Below are positions 29,553-43,987 of a DNA stretch of 64,000 nt, in pieces. The notes under the pieces are model-generated. The model did not search any database. It saw only the letters and a list, made by a program, of their open reading frames with translations, and was not told the DNA's origin. The position numbers and the translations under genes were made by a program. The stretch lies in the sequence record PZ445511.1; one strand, written 5' to 3'. Source of the DNA: a phage. The first letter of the stretch is position 1; each line of letters starts with the position of its first letter.

Positions 29553-29553
29553 T

Positions 29554-31718: not shown

Positions 31719-31726
31719 AAATTCAA

Positions 31727-31755: not shown

Positions 31756-31787
31756 AACTGTATAAATTGATGAGAGGAAAGCGAACA

Positions 31788-31958: not shown

Positions 31959-32401
31959 TGGAAGAGAATATTCTAGATGTTTTGCGTAGGGCTTTGCAGG
32001 AATCCAAGTTTGATGGTTCTGATAAAGAAGTAGCTAAAAGCTACCAGACCATAATCGGAGATCTTCAGCGTGTTGATAAAGACTTCATTACTTCTGAACA
32101 GTTTATATCTTATCTAAAAGCTCAACTGAAAAGCATTAATCAGACGAAAGCTAAACTTCACAGTCAAGATCTTGATAATTATAGCTTGCAGTCTGCTCAG
32201 TATGAATATATACTGAACAAATGGTTACAGCAGTATTTGCCTCCTCAGCTATCTGATTCTGAGATTCGCAAATACTTCGCAGAATTAGTTAAGCTGAATC
32301 CTGGGATTACAAAGGGTATGCTGATGAAAGCGATTAAGGAAGAGTTTCCTGGTCGTTACGACGGTGGCATTGCTGCTCAGGTTGCTGGCGAATTTAATTA
32401 A
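31958..32401 (+). CDS. GatB/YqeY-domain protein
   Basis: 147 aa; C-terminal YqeY-like block NPGITKGMLMKAIKEEFPGRYDG. Confidence 0.55.
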   Translation: MEENILDVLRRALQESKFDGSDKEVAKSYQTIIGDLQRVDKDFITSEQFISYLKAQLKSINQTKAKLHSQDLDNYSLQSAQYEYILNKWLQQYLPPQLSDSEIRKYFAELVKLNPGITKGMLMKAIKEEFPGRYDGGIAAQVAGEFN

Positions 32402-32409
32402 AAATTAAT

Positions 32410-32438
32410 TTGCTAAACGCTTCAAAATTCTGTATAAT
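32410..32438 (+). promoter_or_regulatory. Sigma70 promoter; downstream HNH ATG sits 7 nt after the -10
   Basis: ttgcta-17bp-tataat; ATG at 32445 with no Shine-Dalgarno. Confidence 0.5.
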
Positions 32439-32444
32439 ATATTC

Positions 32445-32927
32445 ATGAAAAGGAAAGAATACCCTACTAAAGAAATACTTGAAAAATATTTTGTAGCTGA
32501 TCCTGATAATGGGATACTATATAGGAAAACAAAGAAAGGTTTGAAAGAGTGTTGTGCCAATAATAAGAAATCACATCCAGATGTGGGATTTCAGGGCGAC
32601 ACCTATCAACTGCATGTCTTATTATTTATTATGTACTATGGATATAGGCCTGAAGAAGTAGATCATAAGGATACTAATCCTAGAAATAATAGGAAAAATA
32701 ATCTAAGGGACGCCTCTAGATCGCAAAATAATGCGAATAGAAACCAACAATGCAATAATACTTCTGGGTACAAAGGAGTAAGTTGGGAAGGCTCTTCCTG
32801 GAGATACCAAGTAAGACATGAAGGAAAAAATTACAGTAAAAGAGGGTTTAAAACTGCGGAAGAGGCTTTCGAGGCCTCTAAGATATTAAGAGAATCCTTA
32901 CATAAAGAATTTACTAACTTTGGTTAG
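32445..32927 (+). CDS. HNH homing endonuclease (HNH_3 plus AP2-like domain)
   Basis: 160 aa; VDHKDTNPRNN...NLR and SGYKGVSW motifs; paralog of 26830 and 37805 genes. Confidence 0.7.
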   Translation: MKRKEYPTKEILEKYFVADPDNGILYRKTKKGLKECCANNKKSHPDVGFQGDTYQLHVLLFIMYYGYRPEEVDHKDTNPRNNRKNNLRDASRSQNNANRNQQCNNTSGYKGVSWEGSSWRYQVRHEGKNYSKRGFKTAEEAFEASKILRESLHKEFTNFG

Positions 32928-32965
32928 TAATAGTGGGGTGCCGAAACCACTTATGTAACAACACT

Positions 32966-33037
32966 GCCGTCCTAGTATAATAGGTATTATTAGGGCTTCA
33001 CCGCCTGAAGATGTGGGTTCGAGTCCCACGGTCGGAA
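32966..33037 (+). other. tRNA-like element (canonical T-arm, non-canonical anticodon arm, no CCA)
   Basis: gtgggTTCGAGTcccac T-arm plus 6-of-7 acceptor pairing; 5-nt loop where anticodon loop should be. Confidence 0.3.
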
Positions 33038-33499
33038 AGAGTTGGATAACTGGTGCTTCTAATGGCGAAGCAATCGCAGGCAGTTGCGCACTGCCAAAAC
33101 CACGCGGTAGTTGGTTCCAGGCTAACCAACCACTCTTGAAAAGTATATACTACGGTTTTGCTTGTTCAGGAAGCTTCGCATCGAAAATCGGAGGTGCGAT
33201 TTTATCAGACCGCGTGGAGGACGTCTCTCCGTTAAGTGACGAAAAGTGGGACGATTCAGGTAGAGCTGGATATGGAACACCTATACATATGCGGAGTGCG
33301 CACAAAGCATATTGCGGTGGTACTAAACGAAATTAGGAGTCATGACCTGCACAAGTTTAGTATGTCATAACCGATGTACATTCAGTACAAAAACCACTGA
33401 AGCTAAGATAGATAGTCACCTTGACTTAAACTGGAAGATATTGTCTGACGGAAGGGCTGCAGAGCTTAATCTGAGGGGGCTGACCCTACCTACCGTCGG

Positions 33500-33539
33500 G
33501 TATCTTTAAGAGTTCTTACGAGAACTCTTAAAGATACCT
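33500..33539 (+). other. Perfect 18-bp inverted repeat hairpin with TACG loop
   Basis: ggtatctttaagagttct / agaactcttaaagatacc, exact complement, 18 nt upstream of the next ORF. Confidence 0.8.
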
Positions 33540-33557
33540 AAACATTAAGGAATACTG

Positions 33558-34067
33558 ATGAATCTAGGAACTACTTGTATATTTGATCACAGAGAAATGT
33601 GTTGCCCACATATTCTGTATGTAGTTCACTTTGCAGAACGTCTTACTCTGGATGAAGCTCGTGAGAAAATGGGTGGAATTACTGGATATGATTTCCGTGA
33701 AGGTGAATACTTTAGCATTGCTCTTGATTACATTGACAATACCCGTCTCTATCATCTAGTGCAGCTAGGGGAAGAAACTGATGAAGTGAAAATGGCGAAA
33801 GATACTCTACGTCGTTATCGTCCTCAGATTCTAGAACGTACACTTCGTGGAGAACGTAGTGACCCATTGTTCTTGAAGTGCTATGACGCAGATGTTAATG
33901 AGTATCTAGGACAGCAACGGTTTTACACTGAAATCAAAGAGTTTGTTCGTGAAAAATACGACGCTCTACTAATTGATTCCAGAGCACGACGTGCAGCTAA
34001 AAATGCTGAGAAATCTGCTAAAGCAGCACTAGAAAGCCAAACCAAACTGAACGAAATCGTTAAGTGA
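33558..34067 (+). CDS. Hypothetical protein
   Basis: 169-aa ORF after aaggaa RBS. Confidence 0.55.
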   Translation: MNLGTTCIFDHREMCCPHILYVVHFAERLTLDEAREKMGGITGYDFREGEYFSIALDYIDNTRLYHLVQLGEETDEVKMAKDTLRRYRPQILERTLRGERSDPLFLKCYDADVNEYLGQQRFYTEIKEFVREKYDALLIDSRARRAAKNAEKSAKAALESQTKLNEIVK

Positions 34068-34075
34068 TCTAATTT

Positions 34076-34150
34076 CGGGGTGTAGTCTAAGGGATAGGCA
34101 GGAGTCTTCTAAATTCCTTTATGCAGGTTCGAATCCTGTCACCTCGGCCA
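34076..34150 (+). tRNA. tRNA-Arg (anticodon TCT)
   Basis: Acceptor cggggtg/cacctcg, anticodon loop cttctaa, T-arm gcaggTTCGAATcctgt, CCA encoded. Confidence 0.8.
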
Positions 34151-34176
34151 ATCTTATTACCTGTTAGGAAAATAAA

Positions 34177-34377
34177 ATGAAAACACGATATATAGTAAAA
34201 GTAGTAGGTGAACATTCGCAAGTAAATACCACGGATGTTACAGCACTAGCATTTGAGGTAGTCTCCGGTATAGTCATATTTCATAATGGGGATATCAAAG
34301 CTCCTGAATTTGCTGTGGATGCTGGCCTGTTTATTTCTGCAACTAAAGTAACTGTAGTAGCTAACTCTTCTAAATAA
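34177..34377 (+). CDS. Hypothetical protein
   Basis: 66-aa ORF just upstream of SPFH gene. Confidence 0.45.
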   Translation: MKTRYIVKVVGEHSQVNTTDVTALAFEVVSGIVIFHNGDIKAPEFAVDAGLFISATKVTVVANSSK

Positions 34378-34388
34378 TAAGGAAATAT

Positions 34389-35333
34389 ATGTTTACTAAA
34401 AACACTAAAGAACTGACTTCTGAGCAAAAAGTAATTCGTACTATTAAACGTTGGGGTGTTGGTGCTGCTATTAGTCTTGGTGCTCTTATTCTGGCTCTCA
34501 ATTCCTATACAGTTGTTCAGGATGGTACTGTTAAGACCCAAACCTTCCTGGGTAAAGTTAGCCCTAATCCTGTATTGCCAGGCTTCCATATTGTTAACCC
34601 ATTTGCTTCTTTTGATACTTTTAGTACGAAAGATATTTCCATGAAACTGGATAAACTTCAGGTTCCTAGCCAGGATAAGTTTAAGTCCACTGTTGACATT
34701 ACCGTTATGTTGCAGTTTGATGGTGCTAAAGCTCCTATGAACCGTGTTAACGCAGGTACTCAGGATCAAGCTCTGAACAAGTACGTTGAAGAGAAGATGC
34801 TGTCTACGATTCGTGAGTTTGGTAAGTCTGTACCAAAAGCACAAGATCTGTTCGACGCTAAGATTCAGGCTCAACTGCAAACCGCTATTCAGCAAGAAGT
34901 AGAAGAGTATGCGCGTCCTTATGGTTACACCGTTAAGCAAGTATTCCTTCAGGATATTACTCTGCCACCGGTAATCATGGAACAGGTACAGAACACCAAA
35001 GTTCGTGAAGAACAAGTTAACGCTGCAAAAGCTGAACTGGCTCGTGTTGAACAAGAAGCACAGCAGAAAGTTAAGCAAGCTGAGGCGGATCGTTCCGCTC
35101 GTGAAAACATGGCAGTAGCTAACGAACGTGACGCAGATGCTAAACTGTACGCAGCTAAGAAAGAAGCTGAAGCTAACGCCGCTCTGCAACGTACCATTAC
35201 TCCTGAAATGATTCGTTGGAAGCAGCTGGAAGTTGAAATGCTTCGTGCTGAAAAATACCAAGGTGGTGTACCACAGACTGTTGTCGGTACTGGCTACGAT
35301 GGTCAAATGATCATGGATATGCGTAACAAGTAA
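34389..35333 (+). CDS. SPFH/band-7 (stomatin/prohibitin-like) membrane protein
   Basis: 314 aa; N-terminal TM helix, SPFH core, long Ala/Gln/Glu coiled-coil C-terminus. Confidence 0.7.
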   Translation: MFTKNTKELTSEQKVIRTIKRWGVGAAISLGALILALNSYTVVQDGTVKTQTFLGKVSPNPVLPGFHIVNPFASFDTFSTKDISMKLDKLQVPSQDKFKSTVDITVMLQFDGAKAPMNRVNAGTQDQALNKYVEEKMLSTIREFGKSVPKAQDLFDAKIQAQLQTAIQQEVEEYARPYGYTVKQVFLQDITLPPVIMEQVQNTKVREEQVNAAKAELARVEQEAQQKVKQAEADRSARENMAVANERDADAKLYAAKKEAEANAALQRTITPEMIRWKQLEVEMLRAEKYQGGVPQTVVGTGYDGQMIMDMRNK

Positions 35334-35346
35334 TAGTTACACGTAA

Positions 35347-35383
35347 TCTTCGAACCAAGCCCGCGTTTCCTTCGAGAGCGCGG
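35347..35383 (+). terminator. Rho-independent terminator
   Basis: aagcccgcg...cgcgggctt hairpin then TTTCTATATTT. Confidence 0.6.
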
Positions 35384-35537
35384 GCTTTTCTATATTTAAG
35401 GCAAAAGAAAAAGCCCATAAGTTATTCAACTAAGGTCTTTAGTATTTAATTCTTTAGAATCATATACTATTATTGCAGCAACAACGTGCTAACCTTAAGT
35501 GCCCTGCGATTTTCCTCTAAAAAGTTAAAAAATTCGA

Positions 35538-35566
35538 TTGCTTGAATGCTAAATTCTCTGTATAAT
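35538..35566 (+). promoter_or_regulatory. Sigma70 promoter for nadR-pnuC
   Basis: ttgctt-17bp-tataat; leader identical to the one at 37402-37437. Confidence 0.6.
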
Positions 35567-35596
35567 ATATTTATAAATTTGAGAGAGGAATCAAAT

Positions 35597-36652
35597 ATGA
35601 TTAAGACTGGTCTAGTAATTGGTAAGTTCGCACCATTAACGCGTGGTCATATTAACCTAATAAACACAGCAGCAACTATGTGTGAACGAGTTATTGTTGT
35701 AGTTAGTCATGATAATCGTTGGCTGGATAAGCAGAACACACGTGATAAGGAAGTATTACAGTTAAAGAATCGACTTCGTTGGTTAGAACAAACTTACGCG
35801 GATATTGAGCACATTTCGGTAGAGTACATTATTGAAGATGATATTCCTGAATATCCGAATGGTTGGCCGGAATATGCTAGAATCCTTAATGAAAATTACG
35901 GACATTTGCCTGAGATCACCGTTTTCTCTAGCGAACTAGACTATGATGCAGAATATAAGAAATATCTGCCGAAGTTTGGTCATTATATTGTAGATTCTGA
36001 TCGGACTCGTGTTCCAATCTCAGCTACAATGATTCGTAATGATCTTATGAAGTATTGGGAGTTTCTTCCTAGCGTAGTTCGTAAAGATTACGTGCGTAAG
36101 GTTGTAATCATTGGGACTGAAAGCTCGGGAAAGACTACTTTAACAAAATACCTTGCGAAGCTATACAACACTTCGTGGGTAGAAGAATATGGTCGAACGT
36201 ATTGTGAAGTTGATCTAGTTGGTAACGAAAATCTGCTTACCAGCGAAGATTATAGTAAAATTGCGTTCAGACACAAAGAGCTAGAGTTTGAAGCAGAACG
36301 TACTGCAAATAAGATCATGTTTGTGGATACAAATGCTTTTATTACTGAGTTCTACCACAGACTTTATGAACATAGTAAGAATCCTGTGGTTACAGCAATT
36401 GCAAAAGAAGAACATTATGATTTAGTAATTGTTCTAGCGCCTACTGTCAAGTGGGTAGATGATGGTTTACGTATTAACTCCGATCGTTCAATTACTTCTG
36501 AACTATTCGAGCAGATGAAGAAAGAATTTCCAAATCAGTTCCCTGAAGGGCGTACTGTTTACATCGACTCTCCGGACTACAAAGTTCGTATGGACGAAGC
36601 AGTAAACGCAGTAGACTGGCTGATTCATCACTTTAACGTTGGAGAGTTTTAA
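35597..36652 (+). CDS. nadR: NadR-type bifunctional NMN adenylyltransferase / ribosylnicotinamide kinase
   Basis: N-terminal nucleotidyltransferase GKFAPLTRGH (HxGH-class), C-terminal P-loop GTESSGKTTL kinase; start set after gagagagg RBS. Confidence 0.75.
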   Translation: MIKTGLVIGKFAPLTRGHINLINTAATMCERVIVVVSHDNRWLDKQNTRDKEVLQLKNRLRWLEQTYADIEHISVEYIIEDDIPEYPNGWPEYARILNENYGHLPEITVFSSELDYDAEYKKYLPKFGHYIVDSDRTRVPISATMIRNDLMKYWEFLPSVVRKDYVRKVVIIGTESSGKTTLTKYLAKLYNTSWVEEYGRTYCEVDLVGNENLLTSEDYSKIAFRHKELEFEAERTANKIMFVDTNAFITEFYHRLYEHSKNPVVTAIAKEEHYDLVIVLAPTVKWVDDGLRINSDRSITSELFEQMKKEFPNQFPEGRTVYIDSPDYKVRMDEAVNAVDWLIHHFNVGEF

Positions 36653-36653
36653 T

Positions 36654-37331
36654 ATGACTAACTATCTCGTAAATGACTTTAAAAACTGGAAACCTCTGGA
36701 ATATCTGTGGCTGTTCATAGCGGTTGTCTTCATTAGTTTAGCAAACTATAATGGTACAGCTCTAGATTGGGCTACTGCAATAACCAATGTGGTTTGTGTT
36801 ATTCTGGTTGCAAAAGGACGTATTTCCAACTATATTTGGGGCTTAGTGGGTGTTCTTACATATGGTATTACAGCTTTAAACGCAGATCTTTATGGTAACG
36901 CTGCACTAAACCTGCTATACTACGTTCCTATGCAGTTTTATGGAATGTACTTATGGCATAAAAATAAGCCAAGTAATCTGCCAGATGTTCCAACTAAGGT
37001 TCTGACTAAAGCCCAAGCTCTGCTGACTCTAGGGATTCTAGCAGTAGCCACGTTAGGGTATGGTAGTTTCTTAGCTACTACGGCTGATCCATTTCCAATG
37101 TTGGATGCATTTACTGCTGTAGGTAGTGTGATCGCTATGTGGCTTATGGTTAAGCAATATGCCGAGCAGTGGCTGATCTGGATTGCTATTAACATTGGTA
37201 CTGTGTACATTTGGCTTGTAACTGCTCAATCTACAGGTGCATCTTATGCAATCCTAGCAATGTGGCTAGTATTCTTAGGTAACTCTATTATAGGAGCCTA
37301 TAAAGGATACTTTGTACGCGTTAACAAATAA
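36654..37331 (+). CDS. pnuC: PnuC-like nicotinamide riboside transporter
   Basis: Multi-helix membrane protein with conserved W/Y-rich PnuC-like blocks; coupled to nadR. Confidence 0.65.
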   Translation: MTNYLVNDFKNWKPLEYLWLFIAVVFISLANYNGTALDWATAITNVVCVILVAKGRISNYIWGLVGVLTYGITALNADLYGNAALNLLYYVPMQFYGMYLWHKNKPSNLPDVPTKVLTKAQALLTLGILAVATLGYGSFLATTADPFPMLDAFTAVGSVIAMWLMVKQYAEQWLIWIAINIGTVYIWLVTAQSTGASYAILAMWLVFLGNSIIGAYKGYFVRVNK

Positions 37332-37338
37332 AGTAGTT

Positions 37339-37364
37339 ATAGCCCTCGCTTAGAGGGCTATTAT
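37339..37364 (+). terminator. Hairpin terminator after pnuC
   Basis: atagccctc-gctta-gagggctat, weak U-tract. Confidence 0.45.
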
Positions 37365-37378
37365 ACAGAAATTTTCAC

Positions 37379-37407
37379 TTGCTTAATATAGAAAATTTCT
37401 GTATAAT
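37379..37407 (+). promoter_or_regulatory. Sigma70 promoter
   Basis: ttgctt-17bp-tataat; -10 plus leader plus RBS duplicated from nadR promoter. Confidence 0.6.
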
Positions 37408-37437
37408 ATATTTATAAATTTGAGAGAGGAATCAAAT

Positions 37438-37734
37438 ATGAAACGCATTGTACTTGCATTGACTCTAGTATCTACTTCTGTATTTGCTGCTCCACAACAG
37501 GAACTTTGTCAAGTTCAAGTTTGTAATAAGCTAGAACGATTTACTCTAGACATTTGGTCCCACATTAAAGATAATATGGGTGAACAGTGTTTTGATATTG
37601 TTCTGCCAAAAGAACAAGCTGTTCCTGGGGCTGTTCTCAGCTCAGAATCACGTTGGTGGCAAGGTTCTTCTATCAACCCAACTAAGAAGTCAGTGACACG
37701 TATCAAACAAGTATATCAGTGCAACGTTCAGTAA
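37438..37734 (+). CDS. Secreted Cys-containing protein
   Basis: Signal peptide MKRIVLALTLVSTSVFA then mature domain with 4 Cys. Confidence 0.55.
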   Translation: MKRIVLALTLVSTSVFAAPQQELCQVQVCNKLERFTLDIWSHIKDNMGEQCFDIVLPKEQAVPGAVLSSESRWWQGSSINPTKKSVTRIKQVYQCNVQ

Positions 37735-37742
37735 AATTTCAC

Positions 37743-37771
37743 TTGCTTAATGCCGAAATTTTCTGTATAAT
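37743..37771 (+). promoter_or_regulatory. Sigma70 promoter
   Basis: ttgctt-17bp-tataat. Confidence 0.55.
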
Positions 37772-37804
37772 ATATTCATAAATTTGGAAGATTAGGAACT
37801 ATTT

Positions 37805-38314
37805 ATGTTAGACTATGAGTCTATACTTTATAGATTCCGTTTAGAAGATGGTGTACTGGTGTGGAATCCGCTCTCCGGAAACTCCAGAGAGGAGAAGATA
37901 TTTAATACTAAGTTTGCCAATAAACCTGCGGGATCTTTGCACAAAAGCTCTGGGTATATCAGAGTTAACGTTGATCACCAAGATTACTTAGCTCATATCA
38001 TAGTATTTATACTATGATATGGGTATAGGCCGGAAATGGTTGATCATAAAGACTGCAATAAGTTAAATATACATCCTTTAAATTTAAGAGCAGCGGATAG
38101 TACCACTAATACTCATAATGCTAGTAAATCTTCTAGGAATACTAGCGGATTTAAGGGAGTATCCTACCACAAAGCATCTGGTCAGTGGCAGGGTAGAATA
38201 ATGTTTAAAGGTAAGTCATACTCCGCAGGGCTGCACAGTACTCCTGAAGCAGCAAATGAAGCTCTAATTCAACTGAGAGAGAAACTTCATGGGGAATATG
38301 CCCGAAATAATTAA
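37805..38314 (+). pseudogene. HNH homing endonuclease interrupted by in-frame TGA at 38015-38017
   Basis: Reading continues in the same frame across TGA: ...AHIIVFIL-stop-YGYRPEMVDHKDC..., matching the paralog sequence FIMYYGYRPEEVDHKD. Confidence 0.55.
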
Positions 38315-38403
38315 GGAAGAATAGCATAACGGTATTGCAGCAGATTGCTAATCTGTCGGTTTGAAACATAGCCTTGTGGGTTCGATTCCCACTTCTTCCG
38401 CCA
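38315..38403 (+). tRNA. tRNA-Ser (anticodon GCT), class II
   Basis: Acceptor ggaagaa/ttcttcc, anticodon loop ttgctaa, long variable arm, T-arm gtgggTTCGATTcccac, CCA. Confidence 0.75.
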
Positions 38404-38408
38404 AATTT

Positions 38409-38486
38409 GGTTCTCAAGCTCATTTGGTATGAGCCGTCGCCTCATAAGCGAAAGGTAGGTAGGTTCGAATCCTCCGGGAGCCACCA
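38409..38486 (+). tRNA. tRNA with CAT anticodon (Met or Ile2)
   Basis: Acceptor ggttctc/gggagcc (two G-U), D-arm gctc...gagc, anticodon loop ctcataa, T-loop TTCGAAT, CCA; A at position 8. Confidence 0.65.
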
Positions 38487-38635
38487 GATAACTAGGAGAC
38501 TTTATGTCACGCTTTCACGAAATTAAGCAAGAACTAGAAGAATGTATGTGTACTGAATGTTGGGGTTCTGGCACTTAATGTTCCAGTGACTGGATTCCCT
38601 GATTGGCTGCAAGGTTACGAACTCTAACAAAATTT

Positions 38636-38721
38636 GGATCTGTGGTGGAATTGGCAATACACACCATGCTTAAAACGTGGCGCTTAAATGATTGAGGGTT
38701 CGAGCCCCTCCAGATCCACCA
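38636..38721 (+). tRNA. tRNA-Leu (anticodon TAA), class II
   Basis: Acceptor ggatctg/cagatcc, anticodon loop cttaaaa, 13-nt variable arm, T-arm gagggTTCGAGCccctc, CCA. Confidence 0.75.
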
Positions 38722-38737
38722 AATTAAGGAAGTAAAA

Positions 38738-38860
38738 ATGAAATCTATTAAGAAAGCTATTCGTGAACTTATCCGTTGTCGCTTCCATAACATCAAGGCT
38801 TCAACTAATGGTACTACTTACGATCGCTATGATCCTAAGTTTGGCTTACATTCTAAATAA
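38738..38860 (+). CDS. Hypothetical small protein
   Basis: 40-aa ORF with aaggaag RBS. Confidence 0.35.
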   Translation: MKSIKKAIRELIRCRFHNIKASTNGTTYDRYDPKFGLHSK

Positions 38861-38873
38861 CTGGAGAAAACAA

Positions 38874-39080
38874 ATGGCTAATCCTGAAATTACGGCACAA
38901 CGTTTTATGCTGAAAGGAATTATTGCTGAAGCAGGCGTGACACAAGAAGTGGAAGATTTCCATAAGCAGTTCCTAAATATTCTCACTCAAGCCAAAGAGC
39001 TAGGAGAGAAAGAACATGGCGCGGCTATTATGGCAATCACATTGGTTGGGCTTGATCTGGCAGAAGAATCAGGAGTTTAA
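38874..39080 (+). CDS. Hypothetical protein
   Basis: 68 aa from ATG after ggagaaa RBS. Confidence 0.45.
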   Translation: MANPEITAQRFMLKGIIAEAGVTQEVEDFHKQFLNILTQAKELGEKEHGAAIMAITLVGLDLAEESGV

Positions 39081-39110
39081 CTTCTCCAAGCAGAAATTTT
39101 AAAAATGTAC

Positions 39111-39140
39111 TTGCTTTTTACTTAAGATTTCTGCTATAAT
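39111..39140 (+). promoter_or_regulatory. Sigma70 promoter
   Basis: ttgctt-18bp-tataat. Confidence 0.5.
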
Positions 39141-39169
39141 AGTTATATAAGTTGATGAGAGGAATCAGA

Positions 39170-39445
39170 ATGTTAAAACGTTTTGCAGCAACTGGTATTG
39201 AAAGCTCAGTATGTAAATCCTGGGGTGGTTGGGAAGGTGAGATCGAGTGGCTTTATTTCTACAATGTAGAACTTCTTCCAGAGATCAAAGCTCAATGTAT
39301 TGAGGCTGGTATGGCTCCTGATGCTACGGCTGATGTTGAAATCAGCATGAATAAGCTAGAGGGTCGAGTAGTCACTGTTACTGATGAAGGTGAAGAGGTA
39401 TTCGAACTTCCATTCACTTTGAAAGTCACTCCTTCATTTGATTAA
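39170..39445 (+). CDS. Hypothetical protein
   Basis: 91 aa from ATG after gagagg RBS. Confidence 0.5.
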   Translation: MLKRFAATGIESSVCKSWGGWEGEIEWLYFYNVELLPEIKAQCIEAGMAPDATADVEISMNKLEGRVVTVTDEGEEVFELPFTLKVTPSFD

Positions 39446-39483
39446 CTGATACAGCACTTGAGCAAGTTCTTTAAAATTTGACT

Positions 39484-39512
39484 TGCTCAAGTGCCTTAAA
39501 ACTTGATATAAT
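39484..39512 (+). promoter_or_regulatory. Sigma70 promoter for tRNA transcription unit; -35 lies inside a 13-bp inverted repeat
   Basis: ttgctc-17bp-tataat; approx 124-nt leader before tRNA-Tyr. Confidence 0.55.
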
Positions 39513-39636
39513 AGTTACCTAATTTGGAAACATATCTGAATGAGAAGTAATTAAGCGAGTTGCTTTGAGGGATAAAGTCAGGATAGCCGGAAATATTCCA
39601 CCTTGAGTTTAACCGACTTACTTTTCATTCAAATAT

Positions 39637-39717
39637 GGGGGATTGGCTCAGTGGCGACGGCGCCTGGCTGTAGACCGGGTATATCACGCGGAGGTTCGAG
39701 TCCTCCATCCCCCACCA
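39637..39717 (+). tRNA. tRNA-Tyr (anticodon GTA)
   Basis: Acceptor gggggat/atccccc, anticodon stem cctgg/ccggg with loop ctgtaga, extended variable region, T-arm ggaggTTCGAGTcctcc, CCA. Confidence 0.7.
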
Positions 39718-39725
39718 AAATTAAT

Positions 39726-39800
39726 GCACCTATCGTCTAATGGTTAGGACATCAGGATTTCAATCTGAGAATTGAACTCCGATTCTCCGTGGGTGTGCCA
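39726..39800 (+). tRNA. tRNA-Glu-like (anticodon TTC) with degenerate T-arm
   Basis: Good acceptor, D- and anticodon arms (loop atttcaa); T-arm tgaac/tccgatt/ctccg pairs poorly; CCA encoded. Confidence 0.45.
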
Positions 39801-39809
39801 ATTAATAAT

Positions 39810-39880
39810 TGGGGTACACATAGGTTGCTAGTGGGCCTCCAAAACCCATGAAAAGGTTTCGAATACCTTTACCCCTGCCA
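39810..39880 (+). tRNA. tRNA-Trp-like (anticodon CCA) with truncated D-arm
   Basis: Canonical T-arm aaggtTTCGAATacctt and CCA; anticodon loop ctccaaa with C31-A39 mismatch; U1-U72 mismatch; only 15 nt for the D region. Confidence 0.35.
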
Positions 39881-39886
39881 ATATTT

Positions 39887-39961
39887 GCACCTTTAGCTGA
39901 GATGGATTAGCGCTTGCCTGAAGAGCTTGAGAGGTTCGTTCAATTCGAACAGGGTGCACCA
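39887..39961 (+). tRNA. tRNA-Phe (anticodon GAA), weak anticodon stem
   Basis: Acceptor gcacctt/agggtgc, D-arm gctg...tagc, anticodon loop ctgaaga, T-arm gttcgTTCAATTcgaac, CCA. Confidence 0.55.
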
Positions 39962-39978
39962 ATTTGAAGGAGATGCTG

Positions 39979-40251
39979 ATGCATCCTGAAAACTTCTTTA
40001 TATACTGTACTAGTCCTTTGCTTAAACGCCGGATTAATAAAGTATATCACTACAGAGCTAGTCAACAGCCTTATGTTTATGATTCTAGTGGAGATCATAT
40101 TCCACTTGAGCAACTAGGGACTGATTATATGGTTTTGAAGCACTTTAATGAGGCGAAGATCTCTAGCGTTCATAACCGACAAAACTCTAAAACGTGGTGG
40201 CATAAGAAGCGTAAGAAAGGCATCAAATTTCTTAAAAATGTAGTTGCTTAA
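39979..40251 (+). CDS. Hypothetical protein
   Basis: Track ORF begins at TTG 39964 abutting the tRNA; ATG at 39979 has aggag at proper spacing. Confidence 0.45.
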   Translation: MHPENFFIYCTSPLLKRRINKVYHYRASQQPYVYDSSGDHIPLEQLGTDYMVLKHFNEAKISSVHNRQNSKTWWHKKRKKGIKFLKNVVA

Positions 40252-40272
40252 ATCCTTAAAGTTCTGTATAAT
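40244..40272 (+). promoter_or_regulatory. Sigma70 promoter
   Basis: ttgctt-17bp-tataat overlapping upstream stop codon. Confidence 0.55.
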
Positions 40273-40300
40273 TATTACATAAATTGAACTGGAGAACTAG

Positions 40301-40489
40301 ATGAAAGCACCTAAACCGAAATTAGTTAAGTTCGACTGCTGTGATACTGAAATCTTATTTACTAAGTTTGGTGAATTTAAGATGTGTGAATGTGGAACAT
40401 GTGGTTACGATCATGGTGATGGATATTATTGCAGAACCCTAGGGCCTTCTGAACTAATCCACTTCTCATGGCCGGAAAGTAAAGAATAA
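40301..40489 (+). CDS. Hypothetical Cys-rich small protein
   Basis: 62 aa with CC...CxC...CxxC pattern; ggagaa RBS. Confidence 0.5.
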   Translation: MKAPKPKLVKFDCCDTEILFTKFGEFKMCECGTCGYDHGDGYYCRTLGPSELIHFSWPESKE

Positions 40490-40491
40490 TA

Positions 40492-40567
40492 CGACCGTTG
40501 GCTGAATGGCTTAGGCGGAGGCCTGCAAAACCTCCTTATGTGAGTTCGAATCTCATGCGGTCGTCCA
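40492..40567 (+). tRNA. tRNA-Cys (anticodon GCA)
   Basis: Acceptor cgaccgt/gcggtcg, anticodon loop ctgcaaa (C31-A39), T-arm gtgagTTCGAATctcat, CCA. Confidence 0.65.
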
Positions 40568-40719
40568 ATTTGCTGAAAGAATTGTTAAATCAATTCAGGC
40601 ACGCGTAGGAACACTGCCTCAGTAATTGAAAGATGAGGCACGGTTTGGAGAGGTATGCCGCTACACGCTACGGTGCTAACTCCGTCTAGGTGAAAATCCT
40701 AGTCAGCAATATAAATTTA

Positions 40720-40802
40720 GGGTCGTTAGCCAAGCGGTTTGGCGGTGGACTGTTAATCCATGTCGAAAGACAACGTAGGTTCGAATCCTACACGGCCCGC
40801 CA
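40720..40802 (+). tRNA. tRNA with GTT anticodon (Asn) and unusual 13-nt variable arm
   Basis: Acceptor gggtcgt/acggccc, D-arm gcca...tggc, anticodon loop ctgttaa, variable gtcgaaagacaac, T-arm gtaggTTCGAATcctac, CCA. Confidence 0.65.
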
Positions 40803-40905
40803 TATTCTATGTAGGATTAAGTAAACCGGTAGCCAACCAGCTATCATTACTGATATCGAATTCAGTCACAGATACCATTTTTCACTAACAACTGAGGAAA
40901 TAGAT

Positions 40906-41091
40906 ATGACAACTCGTGCAATTGCTCGACTAGAAGCTGATCGTGATAATCTGATTAATAATATTAAGGTTCGTGGTAATATTATTAAGGCTCTGAAAGC
41001 TGAACTTCTTGAAGAACTTCAAGGTCAAGTAGAGCGTCGTGAAGCTCTAAAAGAGGTTGAGGAAGCTATCGAAAAACTCAAGGCTGAATAA
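40906..41091 (+). CDS. Hypothetical coiled-coil protein
   Basis: 61-aa ORF with gaggaaa RBS. Confidence 0.5.
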   Translation: MTTRAIARLEADRDNLINNIKVRGNIIKALKAELLEELQGQVERREALKEVEEAIEKLKAE

Positions 41092-41094
41092 ATT

Positions 41095-41676
41095 ATGCAC
41101 GGAATATCCTTACCCATTCCAGGGTTTGAGGAGTACTTAGTAAGTTTGGATGGGTTAGTATTTAGTATCAAATCAAACAAAATACTAACCCCAATAACCA
41201 GTAATTATGGATACTTATCTATACGTCTCCATAAAAATGGTCAACAGAGAAATACCGGTGTACATAGGATTTTAGCATGTGCATTTAAGAAATTACCAAG
41301 TCTAGACTCTGAACTAGAAGTTGACCATATTAACACAGACATTACTTATTGGGGTCTTAATAACTTACAAGTGCTCACAAAAGAGCAGCATCTAGAAAAG
41401 ACTTTAAAAGATAAAGGATTTAGTAAACTAAATCATGATAATTGTTGTAAGGATTGTGGTAAAGCTATTTCTTTAAAAGCTGAAAAATGTCAGGAGTGCT
41501 CTTCACATAAACCAAAAGATATCTCTATAACTAAAGAAATAATCGAGGTTACAGTAAGAGAGCTAGGCTGGTCAGGTGCAGGGAGAAAGTTAAATTATTC
41601 AGATAATGGGTTGCGTAAAAGATACACTTCTTTAGGAGGCAATCCTAAAGAACTTAAAAAGTTAAAGGTACTATAG
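41095..41676 (+). CDS. HNH homing endonuclease (NUMOD4-like N-terminus, HNH core, C-terminal zinc ribbon)
   Basis: 193 aa; GFEEYLVSLDG, VHRILA...VDHINTD...NL, CCKDCGK...CQEC. Confidence 0.7.
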   Translation: MHGISLPIPGFEEYLVSLDGLVFSIKSNKILTPITSNYGYLSIRLHKNGQQRNTGVHRILACAFKKLPSLDSELEVDHINTDITYWGLNNLQVLTKEQHLEKTLKDKGFSKLNHDNCCKDCGKAISLKAEKCQECSSHKPKDISITKEIIEVTVRELGWSGAGRKLNYSDNGLRKRYTSLGGNPKELKKLKVL

Positions 41677-41741
41677 TCTAACGGTTAGGATACTCCCCTG
41701 TCACGGGAGAGGTAGGGTTTCGATTACCCTTAGTACCGCCA
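41667..41741 (+). tRNA. tRNA-Asp (anticodon GTC)
   Basis: Acceptor ggtacta/tagtacc, anticodon stem ctccc/gggag loop ctgtcac, T-arm agggtTTCGATTaccct, CCA; 5' end overlaps HNH gene stop. Confidence 0.8.
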
Positions 41742-41747
41742 AATTAT

Positions 41748-41824
41748 ACATCCATAGCTCAACTGGTCAGAGCTACCGCCTCTTAAGCGGAGGGTTGAAG
41801 GTTCAAGTCCTTCTGGGAGTACCA
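41748..41824 (+). tRNA. tRNA-Lys (anticodon CTT)
   Basis: D-arm gctc...gagc, anticodon loop ctcttaa, T-arm gaaggTTCAAGTccttc, CCA; one acceptor mismatch. Confidence 0.65.
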
Positions 41825-42027
41825 AACAAATAGAGTAAAGGCTACAGTAGGTGCACCCTTACGGACTGCTACACCGGACTCTATTCATTAACAAACATTC
41901 TAGCGTGGTGGAGAGGGGACACCAGCTGTGCGAGGGTAGAAGCTTGTTCGATTCAAGTGAAAGAATGGTTCTCGTAAATCCGCAGCAGTGATAGTAGGTT
42001 CAAGTCCTACCTAGATTGACTTATTAT

Positions 42028-42101
42028 GCGTTCGTAGTTAAAAGGTATAATTTTTGGTTGCCAACCAGAAGTTGAGGGTTCGATTCCCTCCGACCGCACC
42101 A
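42028..42101 (+). tRNA. tRNA-Gly (anticodon GCC)
   Basis: Acceptor gcgttcg/cgaccgc (one mismatch), anticodon loop ttgccaa, T-arm gagggTTCGATTccctc, CCA. Confidence 0.7.
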
Positions 42102-42351
42102 AATTTAGGGTTCTGCTTCCTAGAGAACGGACTCCTAGATAAACAAGGCGATGAGTTTCCGGCCGGTTCTAGTCGCTGAAAATCCTCCCGACCAGGTAGG
42201 TGTAGGTAAACGAAAGTTTACTTATTGAGTAGGTTCCGATAGATCGGCGGATCTATTCTGGCATTTAAGAGAAGTCTCGCAAACTTCTTTGTCAGCAGAG
42301 CGTTTGAAGCGTGAGGTGGCCTACACAATAAGTAAATTTATTAAAAACTCA

Positions 42352-42381
42352 TTTGCTATTTCACTTAATTCTCTTTATAAT
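42352..42381 (+). promoter_or_regulatory. Sigma70 promoter for tRNA transcription unit
   Basis: ttgcta-18bp-tataat directly upstream of tRNA-Pro. Confidence 0.55.
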
Positions 42382-42413
42382 ATATCTTATAAAGTGAGTT
42401 AACAAAGAATATT

Positions 42414-42491
42414 CTCCGTGTAGCTCAGTTTGGCCAGAGCGTTCCGTTTGGGGCGGTAGGGTCGGGGGTTCAAATCCTCCCACGGAGACCA
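42414..42491 (+). tRNA. tRNA-Pro (anticodon TGG)
   Basis: Acceptor ctccgtg/cacggag, D-arm gctc...gagc, anticodon loop tttgggg (G37), T-arm gggggTTCAAATcctcc, CCA. Confidence 0.75.
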
Positions 42492-42497
42492 AACAAT

Positions 42498-42575
42498 TGC
42501 GGGTTAGATCTCTGGTAGAGATCGCTAGTCTCATAAGCTAGAAAGAGGTAGGTTCGATTCCTACACCCGCTTCCA
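42498..42575 (+). tRNA. tRNA with CAT anticodon (Met-type; unpaired 1-72, possibly initiator-like)
   Basis: Anticodon stem ctagt/gctag loop ctcataa, T-arm gtaggTTCGATTcctac, CCA; position 1 U opposite U72. Confidence 0.6.
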
Positions 42576-42594
42576 ATTTAATAGAGGATACGAA

Positions 42595-42759
42595 ATGAAA
42601 TTATTTCGATTGGTAGTAAGTGATAGACGGTCTAGCAAAGATCGTTCGAAGTATACCTTAGCCCATTATGGGAAAGATGAAAATGAAGTAATGGCTGAAT
42701 TTGGTATTAATCATCGCTACTTAGAAGTTTACTCTATTAAGGAAGTTTATCCGTATTAA
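42595..42759 (+). CDS. Hypothetical small protein
   Basis: 54-aa ORF with agagga RBS between two tRNAs. Confidence 0.4.
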   Translation: MKLFRLVVSDRRSSKDRSKYTLAHYGKDENEVMAEFGINHRYLEVYSIKEVYPY

Positions 42760-42837
42760 GGGTCGTTAGCTCAATTGGTTAGTAGCACTTGCCTTTTAAG
42801 CAATAGGTTGAAGGTTCGAGTCCTTCACGACCCACCA
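42760..42837 (+). tRNA. tRNA-Lys (anticodon TTT)
   Basis: Acceptor gggtcgt/acgaccc, anticodon loop cttttaa, T-arm gaaggTTCGAGTccttc, CCA. Confidence 0.75.
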
Positions 42838-42846
42838 AATTACTTT

Positions 42847-42920
42847 GCTCGGTTAGTTTAATGGGAGAACCCCGTCTTTACACGGCGGTTGCGATAGTTC
42901 GATTCTATCACCGAGTACCA
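42847..42920 (+). tRNA. tRNA-Val (anticodon TAC)
   Basis: Acceptor gctcggt/accgagt, anticodon stem ccgtc/ggcgg loop tttacac, T-arm gatagTTCGATTctatc, CCA. Confidence 0.75.
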
Positions 42921-42939
42921 ATTAACTCAAAATAAGGAA

Positions 42940-43299
42940 TTGCAAATGCAATTATCAAGCAAGATTCAAGGCTATTTTGGTCATGTAACAATGGAGTTCG
43001 CTATCTCTAAAGGTTGGGATTTCGAGCAAGATCTAGCTGAGTTCTACAAAGATATTGATCTGAACGTACCATACATGGGACTCTCCACTGGTCAAGAGAT
43101 CACAGAAGGCGATGTGTTCAAGGCAAGTCAAGGTGAGGTAACACCTAATTTTGCCAAGTTCTGGTTAGGACTTACTTTGAAGGAAGATGCACCAGAGGAT
43201 GGTGTGGTTATGCAGAGTATGCACTCTGGAAGCTCTGATTACCTTTTCGTTAGCGACGTTAAGGAACTACAAGAAATCGCTAAAAATGTACTTGCTTGA
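42940..43299 (+). CDS. Hypothetical protein
   Basis: 119-aa ORF (TTG start per track; internal ATG 6 nt later) after aaggaa RBS. Confidence 0.5.
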   Translation: MQMQLSSKIQGYFGHVTMEFAISKGWDFEQDLAEFYKDIDLNVPYMGLSTGQEITEGDVFKASQGEVTPNFAKFWLGLTLKEDAPEDGVVMQSMHSGSSDYLFVSDVKELQEIAKNVLA

Positions 43300-43320
43300 T
43301 GCTTAATTTCTTGTTATAAT
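43292..43320 (+). promoter_or_regulatory. Sigma70 promoter overlapping upstream stop codon
   Basis: ttgctt-17bp-tataat then gatgagga-GAAA-tcctcatc hairpin in leader. Confidence 0.55.
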
Positions 43321-43582
43321 ATTTATATAAATTGATGAGGAGAAATCCTCATCAAAGTTCACTAAGGTATTAGCTCGACCTAGGGCTGGCTGCCAAAAAG
43401 CACAATTGCAATTAGACCCCTAATGGCGGGGGATACTTTGCAATAAGTTCTAGATTAGTCCACTAGATTCAGTGGCAACTGAATAGTGTATCGGGTTTGT
43501 GAAGAGCGGTTATCCTCTACTGGCTAATGTCTGAGGGTAATACGCACACCGAGCTAATAGCCTTAGTAAACTTAAAGATTTT

Positions 43583-43661
43583 GGGGAATGGGTCTGCTTG
43601 GAGTGGACACCTCGCTTGCACCGAGGATATCAGAAGAGTTCGAATCTCTTATTCTCCACCA
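43583..43661 (+). tRNA. tRNA-Ala-like (anticodon TGC), G3-U70 present, 7-nt variable loop
   Basis: Acceptor ggggaat/attctcc with G3-U70, anticodon stem cctcg/cgagg loop cttgcac, T-arm aagagTTCGAATctctt, CCA. Confidence 0.55.
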
Positions 43662-43666
43662 AATTC

Positions 43667-43742
43667 GGGGTCATAGGTTATTTGGTTAAACTTACTGCCT
43701 TGCAAGCAGTGGAACTCAGTTCAATTCTGAGTGACTCCACCA
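43667..43742 (+). tRNA. tRNA-Ala (anticodon TGC)
   Basis: Acceptor ggggtca/tgactcc with G3-U70, anticodon stem actgc/gcagt loop cttgcaa, T-arm ctcagTTCAATTctgag, CCA. Confidence 0.7.
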
Positions 43743-43761
43743 AACAAATTAAGGAAATAAT

Positions 43762-43980: not shown

Positions 43981-43987
43981 ATAAAAT

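What the first reader, a model, noticed from the sequence alone, without database searches (positions are those of the whole stretch)
37805..38314. In-frame TGA inside an HNH homing endonuclease gene
The frame reads ...AHIIVFIL-TGA-YGYRPEMVDHKDC... and continues in the same frame with the conserved HNH catalytic region. The paralog at 32445 has Tyr at this position. This is either a recent nonsense mutation or a site of stop-codon readthrough. It lies at the edge of a phage tRNA array that includes a Trp(CCA)-like tRNA with an unusual C31-A39 anticodon stem.
Basis: seen in the sequence. Interest (0 to 1): 0.6.

Follow-up and report, generated by a model that had tools for sequence, protein, structure and literature searches.

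The report
Nonsense-mutated homing endonuclease in T5-like phage
A selfish DNA-cutting gene in a T5-like Salmonella phage has recently picked up a stop codon that cuts its catalytic domain in two, which is ordinary decay of a dispensable mobile gene and not a special way of reading the genetic code.

Summary
A TGA at 38015-38017 lies in frame at codon 71 of a 169-codon gene. The gene encodes a freestanding homing endonuclease with an HNH domain and an AP2 domain (F-TflVI type), in a T5-like Epseptimavirus.

The stop is derived and recent. The window's closest relative, vB_SenS-3, is 99.9% identical over 15 kb and reads TAT (Tyr) there, so two adjacent bases differ. Orthologues sampled from every other identity class also read Tyr. 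Of 58 public phage records that carry the gene, only bux and KKP_3831 share the TGA. With the window, that makes three distinct mosaic genomes, so a sequencing error is unlikely.

The stop splits the HNH_3 domain, and the catalytic Asp-His, Asn and AP2 parts lie downstream.

Nothing supports programmed readthrough:
- The stop is not conserved.
- The context is UGA-U, the commonest context of real TGA terminators in this window.
- There is no downstream RNA structure.
- It is the only interrupted gene in 64 kb.
- The "tRNA(UCA)" at 32966 is a conserved tRNA-like RNA with a 6-nt, hypervariable anticodon loop.
- The Trp(CCA) tRNA's C31·A39 mismatch is a T5 family trait, and the KKP_3831 stretch examined holds no tRNA-Trp.

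Verdict: early pseudogenisation of a homing endonuclease. Interest is low.

The parts
37743..37771 (+). T5 early-type promoter-like element (TTGCTT, 17 nt, TATAAT). In phages without the endonuclease gene it directly drives tRNA-Ser and tRNA-Met.
   Evidence: Read from the sequence. It is identical in the empty-site phage beppo. A near-identical copy precedes the paralogue at 32405-32444. The -35 hexamer matches only 3 of 6 consensus bases, so the simple scan did not list it. Its likeness to T5 promoters is from my own knowledge.
37786..37795 (+). Remnant of the 5' end of the ancestral tRNA-Ser(GCU) (GGAAGATTAG). It now forms the leader and Shine-Dalgarno region of the HNH gene.
   Evidence: Alignment with the beppo empty site and with the tRNA-Ser alleles.
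37805..38014 (+). Codons 1-70 of the HNH-AP2 homing endonuclease gene: the N-terminal domain plus the first helix of the HNH_3 domain.
   Evidence: ORF list. There is no Pfam hit to this fragment alone. The structural model puts helix 63-72 just before the catalytic strand.
38015..38017 (+). In-frame TGA at codon 71. It is derived from TAT (Tyr) by two adjacent base changes at 38016-38017.
   Evidence: G/A and A/T differences from vB_SenS-3. Tyr is present in all sampled orthologues.
38018..38314 (+). Codons 72-169 plus the TAA stop. This part holds the beta-beta-alpha-metal catalytic core (Asp80-His81 at 38042-38047, Asn93, Asn102/105) and the AP2-type DNA-binding domain.
   Evidence: Invariant residues in the alignments. 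Pfam HNH_3 and AP2. AlphaFold model with pLDDT 94. Matches to I-HmuI and to AP2 domains.
38036..38314 (+). 92-aa ORF starting at the internal ATG (Met78), 18 nt after the TGA. The public records of bux and KKP_3831 annotate it as a separate hypothetical protein. It is a possible reinitiation product.
   Evidence: Alone it scores 16.5 bits on HNH_3, below the 24.8 cut-off.
38315..38403 (+). tRNA-Ser(GCU) allele that travels with the endonuclease gene. It starts one base after the HNH stop codon and is only about 60% identical to the tRNA-Ser(GCU) of empty-site phages.
   Evidence: ARAGORN. Rfam 60.5 bits. Alignment with beppo.
32445..32927 (+). Intact paralogous HNH endonuclease gene (160 aa, 35% identical), with Tyr at the aligned position.
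   Evidence: phrog_99.
32966..33037 (+). tRNA-like RNA whose loop reads UCA. ARAGORN and several records call it tRNA-SeC or tRNA-OTHER. It was considered as an opal suppressor and rejected.
   Evidence: 33 bits, anticodon loop one base short; covariation; part of T5-type 'rnaX' stable RNA.
39810..39880 (+). Orthologue of phage T5 tRNA-Trp(CCA), with U1·U72 and C31·A39 mismatches and a reduced D arm.
   Evidence: (23.8 bits).

Best explanation
The gene is a freestanding homing endonuclease of the HNH (His-Me finger, Pfam HNH_3) type with an AP2 DNA-binding domain. Related records annotate it as F-TflVI. It sits in a T5-like Salmonella phage of the genus Epseptimavirus.

The gene lies between a strong early promoter and tRNA-Ser(GCU). 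It arrived as a cassette that replaced most of the resident tRNA-Ser with its own diverged copy. I infer that this copy cannot be cut by the enzyme.

In one recent lineage, two adjacent base changes turned Tyr71 (TAT) into TGA. Translation therefore stops after 70 residues, ahead of the catalytic Asp-His, Asn motif and the AP2 domain, and the enzyme is lost. This is the degeneration stage of the usual homing-endonuclease life cycle.

The phage pays no cost, so the dead allele persists. General recombination has moved it into at least three mosaic genomes, or it has been copied as a repair template when an intact copy in a co-infecting phage supplies the cut.

Shown here: the stop, its derived state, its position in the domain, the presence/absence polymorphism, and the cassette anatomy. 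Inferred: loss of activity, neutrality, and the route of spread.
For: - The TGA is in frame.
- vB_SenS-3 is 99.895% identical over 15.3 kb and reads TAT. In the gene and its flanks the only differences are 38016-38017.
- Of 58 phage records carrying the gene, only bux and KKP_3831 have TGA (4 entries, because GenBank and RefSeq both list them).
- An exact-sequence look-up finds the 70-aa and 92-aa fragments only in those two genomes, and finds many intact 169-aa versions.
- Orthologues from each identity class have Tyr.
- HNH_3 spans residues 61-99, so the stop splits it. Neither fragment reaches the Pfam cut-off.
- The model (pLDDT 94.2) puts residue 71 in helix 63-72, before catalytic strands 78-81 and 94-97 and before the AP2 sheet and helix.
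- The fold matches I-HmuI and AP2 domains. The sequence matches phrog_99 HNH endonuclease at E=1e-50.
- Mobility: 437 records share the flanks and 58 hold the gene. Beppo has an empty site and SE19 holds a different ORF there.
- HNH homing endonuclease genes are the main source of differences among T5-like genomes (PMC10644984).
Against: - Apart from the stop, the allele has no further damage. It is identical to intact alleles over 1.1 kb, so decay cannot be confirmed from accumulated mutations.
- The allele is found in three different genomic backgrounds. This could also mean that it is tolerated because some function remains.
- Codon 71 is a variable position in the family (Y, H, V, A, M, T and others), so a readthrough product would probably be active.
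- No expression or activity data exist.
Confidence: 0.85

Rival explanations
1. The TGA is leaky and functionally relevant. Host tRNA-Trp reads it by near-cognate pairing, or a phage-encoded RNA reads it: the UCA-loop tRNA-like element at 32966, or the unusual tRNA-Trp. A small amount of full-length enzyme is made, and the allele is kept as an attenuated version of a potentially toxic nuclease.
For: - UGA is the leakiest stop codon in enterobacteria (my own knowledge).
- Codon 71 tolerates many residues in the family, and Trp would replace Tyr.
- All three TGA-carrying genomes also carry the UCA-loop tRNA-like element.
- The allele persists in three mosaic genomes.
- Expression of homing endonucleases in T4 and T5 tRNA clusters is known to be kept low (PMC2330249).
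Against: - The stop is not conserved: it is in 2 of 56 distinct records plus the window.
- The +4 base is U, as in 16 of 27 real TGA terminators here. From my own knowledge, U is an efficient termination context in E. coli.
- There is no downstream structure (z=+0.69).
- The UCA element occurs at >=98% identity in about 76 records, most of which have an intact or absent HNH gene.
- The UCA element's anticodon arm is 3-4 bp with a 6-nt loop, and there are non-standard pairs at 1:72 and 5:68.
- Its loop sequence differs between clades (TTCACC against GTAACT).
- T5-type records call the region a stable RNA of unknown function.
- The C31·A39 mismatch of tRNA-Trp is a family trait. The KKP_3831 stretch examined has no tRNA-Trp. 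The T5 record notes that this tRNA does not act as a suppressor when its anticodon is replaced.
- 27 of 116 long ORFs in the window end in TGA, with no excess of back-up stops.
Confidence: 0.08
2. The gene is now a functional split gene. Ribosomes terminate at the TGA and reinitiate at the ATG 18 nt downstream (38036). The resulting 92-aa protein carries the Asp-His, Asn motif and the AP2 domain and still cuts or binds DNA.
For: - An in-frame ATG (Met78) lies 18 nt after the stop, with a weak AGG six bases upstream.
- The fragment keeps all invariant catalytic residues and the AP2 domain.
- Public records annotate it as a separate CDS.
Against: - The fragment lacks residues 1-77. That removes the N-terminal domain, helix 63-72 and the nearly invariant His64.
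- HNH_3 drops to 16.5 bits, below the 24.8 cut-off.
- The ATG and its context are identical in intact alleles, so nothing has evolved to support independent expression.
Confidence: 0.04
3. The TGA is a sequencing or assembly error.
For: I could not inspect raw reads.
Against: - The same dinucleotide is present in three different genomes: the window, bux, and KKP_3831 (wastewater, Warsaw). They differ from one another elsewhere.
- A two-base substitution is not a typical homopolymer or indel error.
Confidence: 0.02

Closest known systems
Freestanding HNH homing endonucleases of the phage T5 tRNA-gene region (F-TflI, F-TflII, F-TflIV; orthologues of this gene are annotated 'F-TflVI')
   Same: - It belongs to the same phage family and lies in the same genomic region, the early tRNA cluster.
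- It has an HNH_3 catalytic domain, its own promoter context, and a presence/absence polymorphism between relatives (PMC10644984, PMC2330249).
   Different: This allele carries a premature TGA inside the HNH domain. No cleavage data exist for F-TflVI, as far as I could find.
I-HmuI (Bacillus phage SPO1 HNH homing endonuclease, PDB 1U3E)
   Same: It is the best whole-chain structural match (probability 0.97). It is also an HNH nuclease followed by a DNA-binding module.
   Different: - It is only 19% identical, and the global superposition is poor (TM 0.42).
- I-HmuI is intron-encoded and has a different C-terminal DNA-binding domain. Here the C-terminal domain is AP2-like (rmsd 1.4 Å to plant AP2/ERF domains).
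Degenerating homing endonuclease genes (the invasion, fixation, decay, loss cycle)
   Same: A derived nonsense mutation in a dispensable selfish gene, with intact copies and empty sites co-existing in close relatives.
   Different: This is a very early stage. There is one lesion (two adjacent substitutions) and no secondary decay.
Stop-codon recoding in phages with suppressor tRNAs (TGA to Trp or TAG to Gln; bioRxiv 10.1101/2021.08.26.457843)
   Same: There is an in-frame TGA, and the same genome encodes an RNA that tRNA finders label with anticodon UCA.
   Different: - Recoded phages have many in-frame stops across genes, especially late ones, and canonical suppressor tRNAs.
- Here there is one in-frame TGA in 64 kb, 27 ORFs terminate with TGA, and the 'suppressor' has a 6-nt loop that is not conserved.

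Membership tests
HNH (His-Me finger) homing endonuclease, Pfam HNH_3 with AP2 domain | The HNH_3 domain scores above the Pfam gathering score | tested here: met
   It scores 34.9 bits against 24.8 when codon 71 is read as Tyr. The two fragments alone give no hit and 16.5 bits.
HNH (His-Me finger) homing endonuclease, Pfam HNH_3 with AP2 domain | Catalytic Asp-His, Asn and Asn residues on a beta-beta-alpha-metal fold | tested here: met
   D80, H81, N93, N102 and N105 are invariant or nearly so in 25- and 45-sequence alignments. The model has strands 78-81 and 94-97 and helix 99-104. All of these lie downstream of the TGA.
HNH (His-Me finger) homing endonuclease, Pfam HNH_3 with AP2 domain | AP2-type DNA-binding domain | tested here: inconclusive
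   Pfam AP2 scores 25.5 bits, below the 33.3 cut-off (E=1.7e-5). Structurally, the domain superposes on plant AP2/ERF domains at rmsd 1.4 Å with probability 1.00.
HNH (His-Me finger) homing endonuclease, Pfam HNH_3 with AP2 domain | Mobility: presence/absence at a fixed site among close relatives | tested here: met
   58 of 437 records that share the flanks hold the gene. Beppo has an empty site and SE19 has different cargo there.
HNH (His-Me finger) homing endonuclease, Pfam HNH_3 with AP2 domain | Site-specific cleavage or nicking of the empty allele | not testable with these tools
   This needs an enzyme assay. The target is inferred to lie in the beppo-type tRNA-Ser(GCU).
Pseudogene / degenerating homing endonuclease gene | The premature stop is derived relative to intact orthologues | tested here: met
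   TAT is present in vB_SenS-3, mar003J3, BD13, bastian, S114, SE3 and P0001. TGA is present only in the window, bux and KKP_3831.
Pseudogene / degenerating homing endonuclease gene | Further degenerative changes have accumulated (frameshifts, relaxed selection) | tested here: not met
   There are no other differences from intact alleles over 1,101 bases. The lesion is too recent to test for relaxed selection.
Programmed stop-codon readthrough | The stop codon is conserved among relatives, with a conserved downstream ORF | tested here: not met
   The stop is absent from 54 of 58 records.
Programmed stop-codon readthrough | Leaky sequence context or a stimulatory downstream RNA structure | tested here: not met
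   The context is UGA-U, shared with 16 of 27 true TGA terminators. The fold of 38005-38095 has z=+0.69.
Stop-codon reassignment (TGA as sense) with a phage suppressor tRNA | Many genes contain in-frame TGA, and TGA is not used as a terminator | tested here: not met
   One interrupted gene in 64 kb. 27 of 116 long ORFs end in TGA.
Stop-codon reassignment (TGA as sense) with a phage suppressor tRNA | A canonical tRNA with a UCA anticodon in a 7-nt loop | tested here: not met
   The element at 32966-33037 has a 6-nt loop, a 3-4 bp anticodon stem and acceptor-stem mismatches. Its loop sequence is not conserved in orthologous elements.
Selenocysteine insertion | A SECIS hairpin just 3' of the UGA, and a tRNA-Sec with a long variable arm and an 8+5 acceptor/T helix | tested here: not met
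   There is no structure 3' of the UGA. The element matches the general tRNA model RF00005 at 33 bits, not RF01852, and has a 5-nt variable region. The 'SeC' label comes from the anticodon alone.

The most novel reading that the evidence does not exclude
The TGA allele is not dead. It is an attenuated, conditionally expressed endonuclease. A phage-encoded RNA decodes UGA at a useful rate during infection: either the covariation-supported tRNA-like element with a UCA loop at 32966-33037, or the D-arm-reduced tRNA-Trp(CCA), which in this window carries a private G-to-A change at 39818. That would explain why the allele persists in three mosaic genomes. It would also show that some T5-like phages carry a natural opal suppressor.
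Probability: 0.04. Interest if true: 0.55.

Novelty: already known. Interest (0 to 1): 0.1.

Why it matters
It matters little beyond annotation. Public records for bux and KKP_3831 list the two halves as separate hypothetical proteins. They should be marked as one disrupted HNH homing endonuclease gene.

The locus is a tidy snapshot of all stages of the homing-endonuclease cycle at one site among near-identical phages: an empty site, an intact gene, alternative cargo, and a freshly inactivated gene.

It also shows the endonuclease travelling with its own diverged tRNA-Ser(GCU) copy. That is a useful natural system for homing and co-conversion experiments in T5-like phages that are being considered for biocontrol.

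If the TGA were in fact decoded by a phage RNA, which is unlikely, it would reveal a natural opal suppressor in a well-studied phage family.

Tried and rejected
1. I first took the window to be phage bux, which is 100% identical over 1.1 kb. I rejected this. Bux diverges after 39535 and no record matches the window at 100%. The backbone is closest to vB_SenS-3.

2. Opal suppressor tRNA at 32966. ARAGORN says SeC(tca). I rejected it as a canonical suppressor because of its 6-nt loop, its variable loop sequence, its wide distribution regardless of the state of the HNH gene, and the T5 'rnaX' annotation.

3. The idea that the UCA variant is a cleavage-immune allele co-converted with the upstream HNH paralogue. 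The association is not strict, since both combinations exist.

4. tRNA-Trp C31·A39 as a special suppressor feature. It is conserved in T5.

5. SECIS or a readthrough-stimulating structure. None was found.

6. Genome-wide TGA recoding. The only other candidate, at 60247-60447, is an ATGA start/stop overlap with the next gene.

7. A paralogous donor for the dinucleotide change. There is no matching sequence elsewhere in the window.

8. IMG/VR scans for either allele found nothing.

9. The 92-aa 'homing endonuclease' annotations in S114, S133 and SE3 looked like further truncated alleles. They are short start calls on intact 169-codon ORFs.

10. Literature searches for F-TflVI, and for tRNA-Sec in T5-like phages, found nothing.

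Full report
**Observation**

The window reads ...cat atc ata gta ttt ata cta TGA tat ggg tat agg ccg gaa atg gtt gat cat aaa gac tgc... The TGA at 38015-38017 is in the frame opened by the ATG at 37805, and that frame continues to a TAA at 38312-38314. Mechanical ORF finding gives a 70-aa ORF (37805-38017) and a 92-aa ORF (38036-38314). The coordinates and the quoted peptide in the finding are correct.

**What the gene is**

Read through, the 169-residue product is 98% identical over its full length to an intact database protein (P0001, E=2.7e-107).

- It matches Pfam HNH_3 at residues 61-99, at 34.9 bits against a cut-off of 24.8.
- It matches AP2 at residues 114-163, at 25.5 bits, below the 33.3 cut-off.
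- It matches PHROG 99 'HNH endonuclease' at E=1e-50.
- An AlphaFold model built from 45 homologues is confident (pLDDT 94.2).
- Its best matches among solved structures are the HNH homing endonuclease I-HmuI (probability 0.97) and plant AP2/ERF DNA-binding domains (rmsd 1.4 Å, probability 1.00).
- Orthologues in related phages are annotated 'H-N-H endonuclease F-TflVI' or 'homing endonuclease'.
- The paralogue at 32445-32927 is 35% identical, belongs to the same PHROG, and has Tyr at the aligned position.

**Where the window comes from**

The 1.1 kb around the gene is 100% identical to Salmonella phages bux and KKP_3831. The window is neither of them.

- Bux is 99.71% identical over 31257-39535 and then drops to 78-94%.
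- KKP_3831 aligns up to 38729, and its next matching segment resumes at window 42072, a gap of about 3.3 kb.
- No record matches the window at 100% over longer stretches.
- The closest backbone is vB_SenS-3 (MT004791.1), at 99.895% over 15.3 kb with 13 mismatches.
- All of these are T5-like phages of the genus Epseptimavirus, family Demerecviridae.

**The stop is derived and recent**

vB_SenS-3 reads CTA TAT TAT GGG where the window reads CTA TGA TAT GGG. The two adjacent bases 38016-38017 are the only differences in the gene. Over the 1,101 bases compared they are also the only differences from the nearest intact alleles, which are 99.8% identical.

58 phage records carry the gene. Only four entries match the TGA version exactly, and these are bux and KKP_3831, each listed in both GenBank and RefSeq. 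I sampled one or two genomes from each other identity class: vB_SenS-3, mar003J3, BD13, bastian, S114 and SE3. All encode Tyr (YYGY) in an intact 169-codon ORF.

An exact-sequence look-up in the 15-billion-protein collection finds the 70-aa and 92-aa fragments only in bux and KKP_3831. It finds many intact 169-aa variants. Three records (S114, S133, SE3) annotate only the last 92 codons. That is a short start call on an intact ORF, not another truncation.

Three different genomes share the same two-base change, so a sequencing error is very unlikely.

**Consequence for the protein**

Codon 71 lies in helix 63-72 of the model. That is after the nearly invariant His64 and before the catalytic strands (78-81 with Asp80-His81, and 94-97 with Asn93), helix 99-104 (Asn102, Asn105) and the whole AP2 domain.

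The 70-aa product has no domain hit. The 92-aa fragment scores 16.5 bits on HNH_3, below the cut-off. Termination at the TGA should therefore abolish activity. This step is an inference.

**Tests of readthrough and recoding**

1. Conservation. The stop is confined to one recent haplotype.
2. Context. The base after the stop is U. 16 of the 27 long ORFs in the window that end in TGA also have U there. From my own knowledge, UGA-U is an efficient terminator in E. coli.
3. Structure. The 91 nt around and after the stop fold no better than shuffled sequence (z=+0.69). So there is no SECIS-like or stimulatory element.
4. Genome-wide recoding. Treating TGA as sense extends only two ORFs by 40 codons or more. 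One is this gene. The other (60247-60447) is an ATGA overlap with the next gene, in another frame. TGA ends 27 of 116 long ORFs, and there is no excess of nearby back-up stops compared with TAA.
5. The 'tRNA-SeC(tca)' that ARAGORN reports at 32965-33038.
   - It is a real structured RNA. It scores 33 bits on the Rfam tRNA model.
   - Its cloverleaf is supported by covariation across nine T5-like phages: 8 pairs have changes on both sides, and 0 of 500 shuffles reach that number.
   - Its anticodon arm is only 3-4 bp with a 6-nt loop, and pairs 1:72 and 5:68 are non-standard.
   - The loop reads TTCACC here but GTAACT in T5-type and Klebsiella phages, and Sugarlandvirus has a 14-nt insertion there.
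   - The UCA variant occurs at >=98% identity in about 76 records, most of which have an intact or absent HNH gene.
   - In DT571/2 the region is annotated as part of 'rnaX, stable RNA with unknown functions'.
   - It is therefore not a credible canonical opal suppressor.
6. The Trp(CCA)-like tRNA.
   - It lies at 39810-39877, scores 23.8 bits (below the gathering score), and ARAGORN misses it.
   - It is the orthologue of T5 tRNA-Trp(CCA). The C31·A39 and U1·U72 mismatches are identical in T5, Sen-E22 and OSYSP.
   - The T5 record notes that this tRNA does not become an amber suppressor when its anticodon is replaced.
   - The KKP_3831 stretch around the TGA allele has a deletion where the window holds this tRNA, and no tRNA-Trp is annotated in it.

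None of this supports a link between the stop codon and the tRNA array.

**How the element is built**

437 records share the flanks but only 58 hold the gene.

In phage beppo (flanks 99.2% identical) a T5 early-type promoter directly drives a tRNA-Ser(GCU) followed by tRNA-Met. In the window this promoter is TTGCTT, 17 nt, TATAAT at 37743-37771.

In the window, the first ten bases of that tRNA (GGAAGATTAG, 37786-37795) remain upstream of the HNH start and supply its Shine-Dalgarno region. The HNH ORF follows. One base after its TAA stop, a different tRNA-Ser(GCU) begins (38315-38403). It shares the acceptor stem with the beppo tRNA but is only about 60% identical overall.

So the endonuclease travels with its own tRNA-Ser allele. 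The likely homing target is the beppo-type tRNA-Ser gene, and the co-travelling allele is presumably immune to cutting. Both points are inferences. They fit what is reported for T5 F-Tfl enzymes and for T4 SegB in tRNA clusters, including low expression because the ORF is part of a processed tRNA precursor (PMC2330249). They also fit the report that HNH genes are the main source of differences between T5-like genomes (PMC10644984).

Phage SE19 carries an unrelated primase-like ORF at the same site.

**Best explanation**

This is an early stage of homing-endonuclease degeneration. A two-base substitution (TAT to TGA) inactivated a dispensable selfish gene. The dead allele persists without cost and has been shuffled among co-circulating Epseptimaviruses. 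Confidence is about 0.85.

**Rival explanations**

- Functionally meaningful readthrough or suppression (about 0.08). This is made slightly more plausible because codon 71 is a variable position in the family and because the allele sits in three backgrounds.
- An active reinitiated 92-aa fragment (about 0.04).
- Sequencing error (about 0.02).

**Novelty and interest**

The gene family, its location and its mobility are known. The disrupted allele is already in GenBank, split into two 'hypothetical proteins'. Nonsense decay of homing endonuclease genes is expected. Interest is low (0.1).

The only reading with some novelty is that a phage RNA decodes the UGA. I put that at about 4%.

Noticed in passing
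window 32966-33037: A tRNA-like RNA labelled tRNA-SeC(tca) or tRNA-OTHER. Its cloverleaf is supported by covariation across T5-like phages. Its anticodon arm is short, with a 6-nt loop, and it is the fastest-evolving part (TTCACC here, GTAACT in T5-type phages, a 14-nt insertion in Sugarlandvirus). In DT571/2 it lies at the 5' end of the annotated 636-nt 'rnaX' stable RNA of unknown function. It may be a processing signal or a decoy for tRNA-targeting defences. Its function is unknown.
   Followed up: partly
window 37786-37795 and 38315-38403; L020 437-530: The HNH gene is inserted after the first ~10 nt of a tRNA-Ser(GCU) gene and is followed by a second, complete tRNA-Ser(GCU) that is only ~60% identical to the one in empty-site phages. 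The endonuclease therefore appears to travel with its own tRNA allele, presumably resistant to cleavage.
   Followed up: partly
window 39810-39880, position 39818: This is the orthologue of T5 tRNA-Trp(CCA). It scores below the Rfam threshold, and its U1·U72 and C31·A39 mismatches are conserved in T5. The window carries an A at 39818 that the aligned relatives lack (G in vB_SenS-3, T5, Sen-E22 and OSYSP); none of the 118 records with this tRNA matches the window's copy exactly (best 98.9%). The change turns the first G:C pair of the 3-bp D stem into A·C.
   Followed up: partly
L021 453-971 (Salmonella phage SE19): The same site, between the promoter and tRNA-Ser, holds an unrelated 172-aa ORF that matches primase-like PHROG 849. 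The site therefore accepts alternative cargo.
   Followed up: partly
window 32405-32447: The paralogous HNH gene's ATG lies only about 7 nt after a TATAAT that is part of a promoter nearly identical to the one at 37743-37771. This suggests a leaderless or near-leaderless mRNA, or a mis-called start.
   Followed up: no
L022 and L023 (phages S114, SE3; also S133): Public records annotate only the last 92 codons of the HNH gene as 'homing endonuclease', although the full 169-codon ORF is intact. This is an annotation artefact that mimics the truncated allele.
   Followed up: yes
window 28742-44000: The window's genome is not in the phage collection searched. It is a fine-scale mosaic: 99.9% like vB_SenS-3 overall, but it shares the TGA and the base at 35108 with bux and KKP_3831.
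   Followed up: partly
window 39726-39797: tRNA-Glu(UUC) is detected by Rfam (35.2 bits) but missed by ARAGORN. So the ARAGORN list of 28 tRNAs for this window is incomplete: it lacks Glu and Trp.
   Followed up: yes
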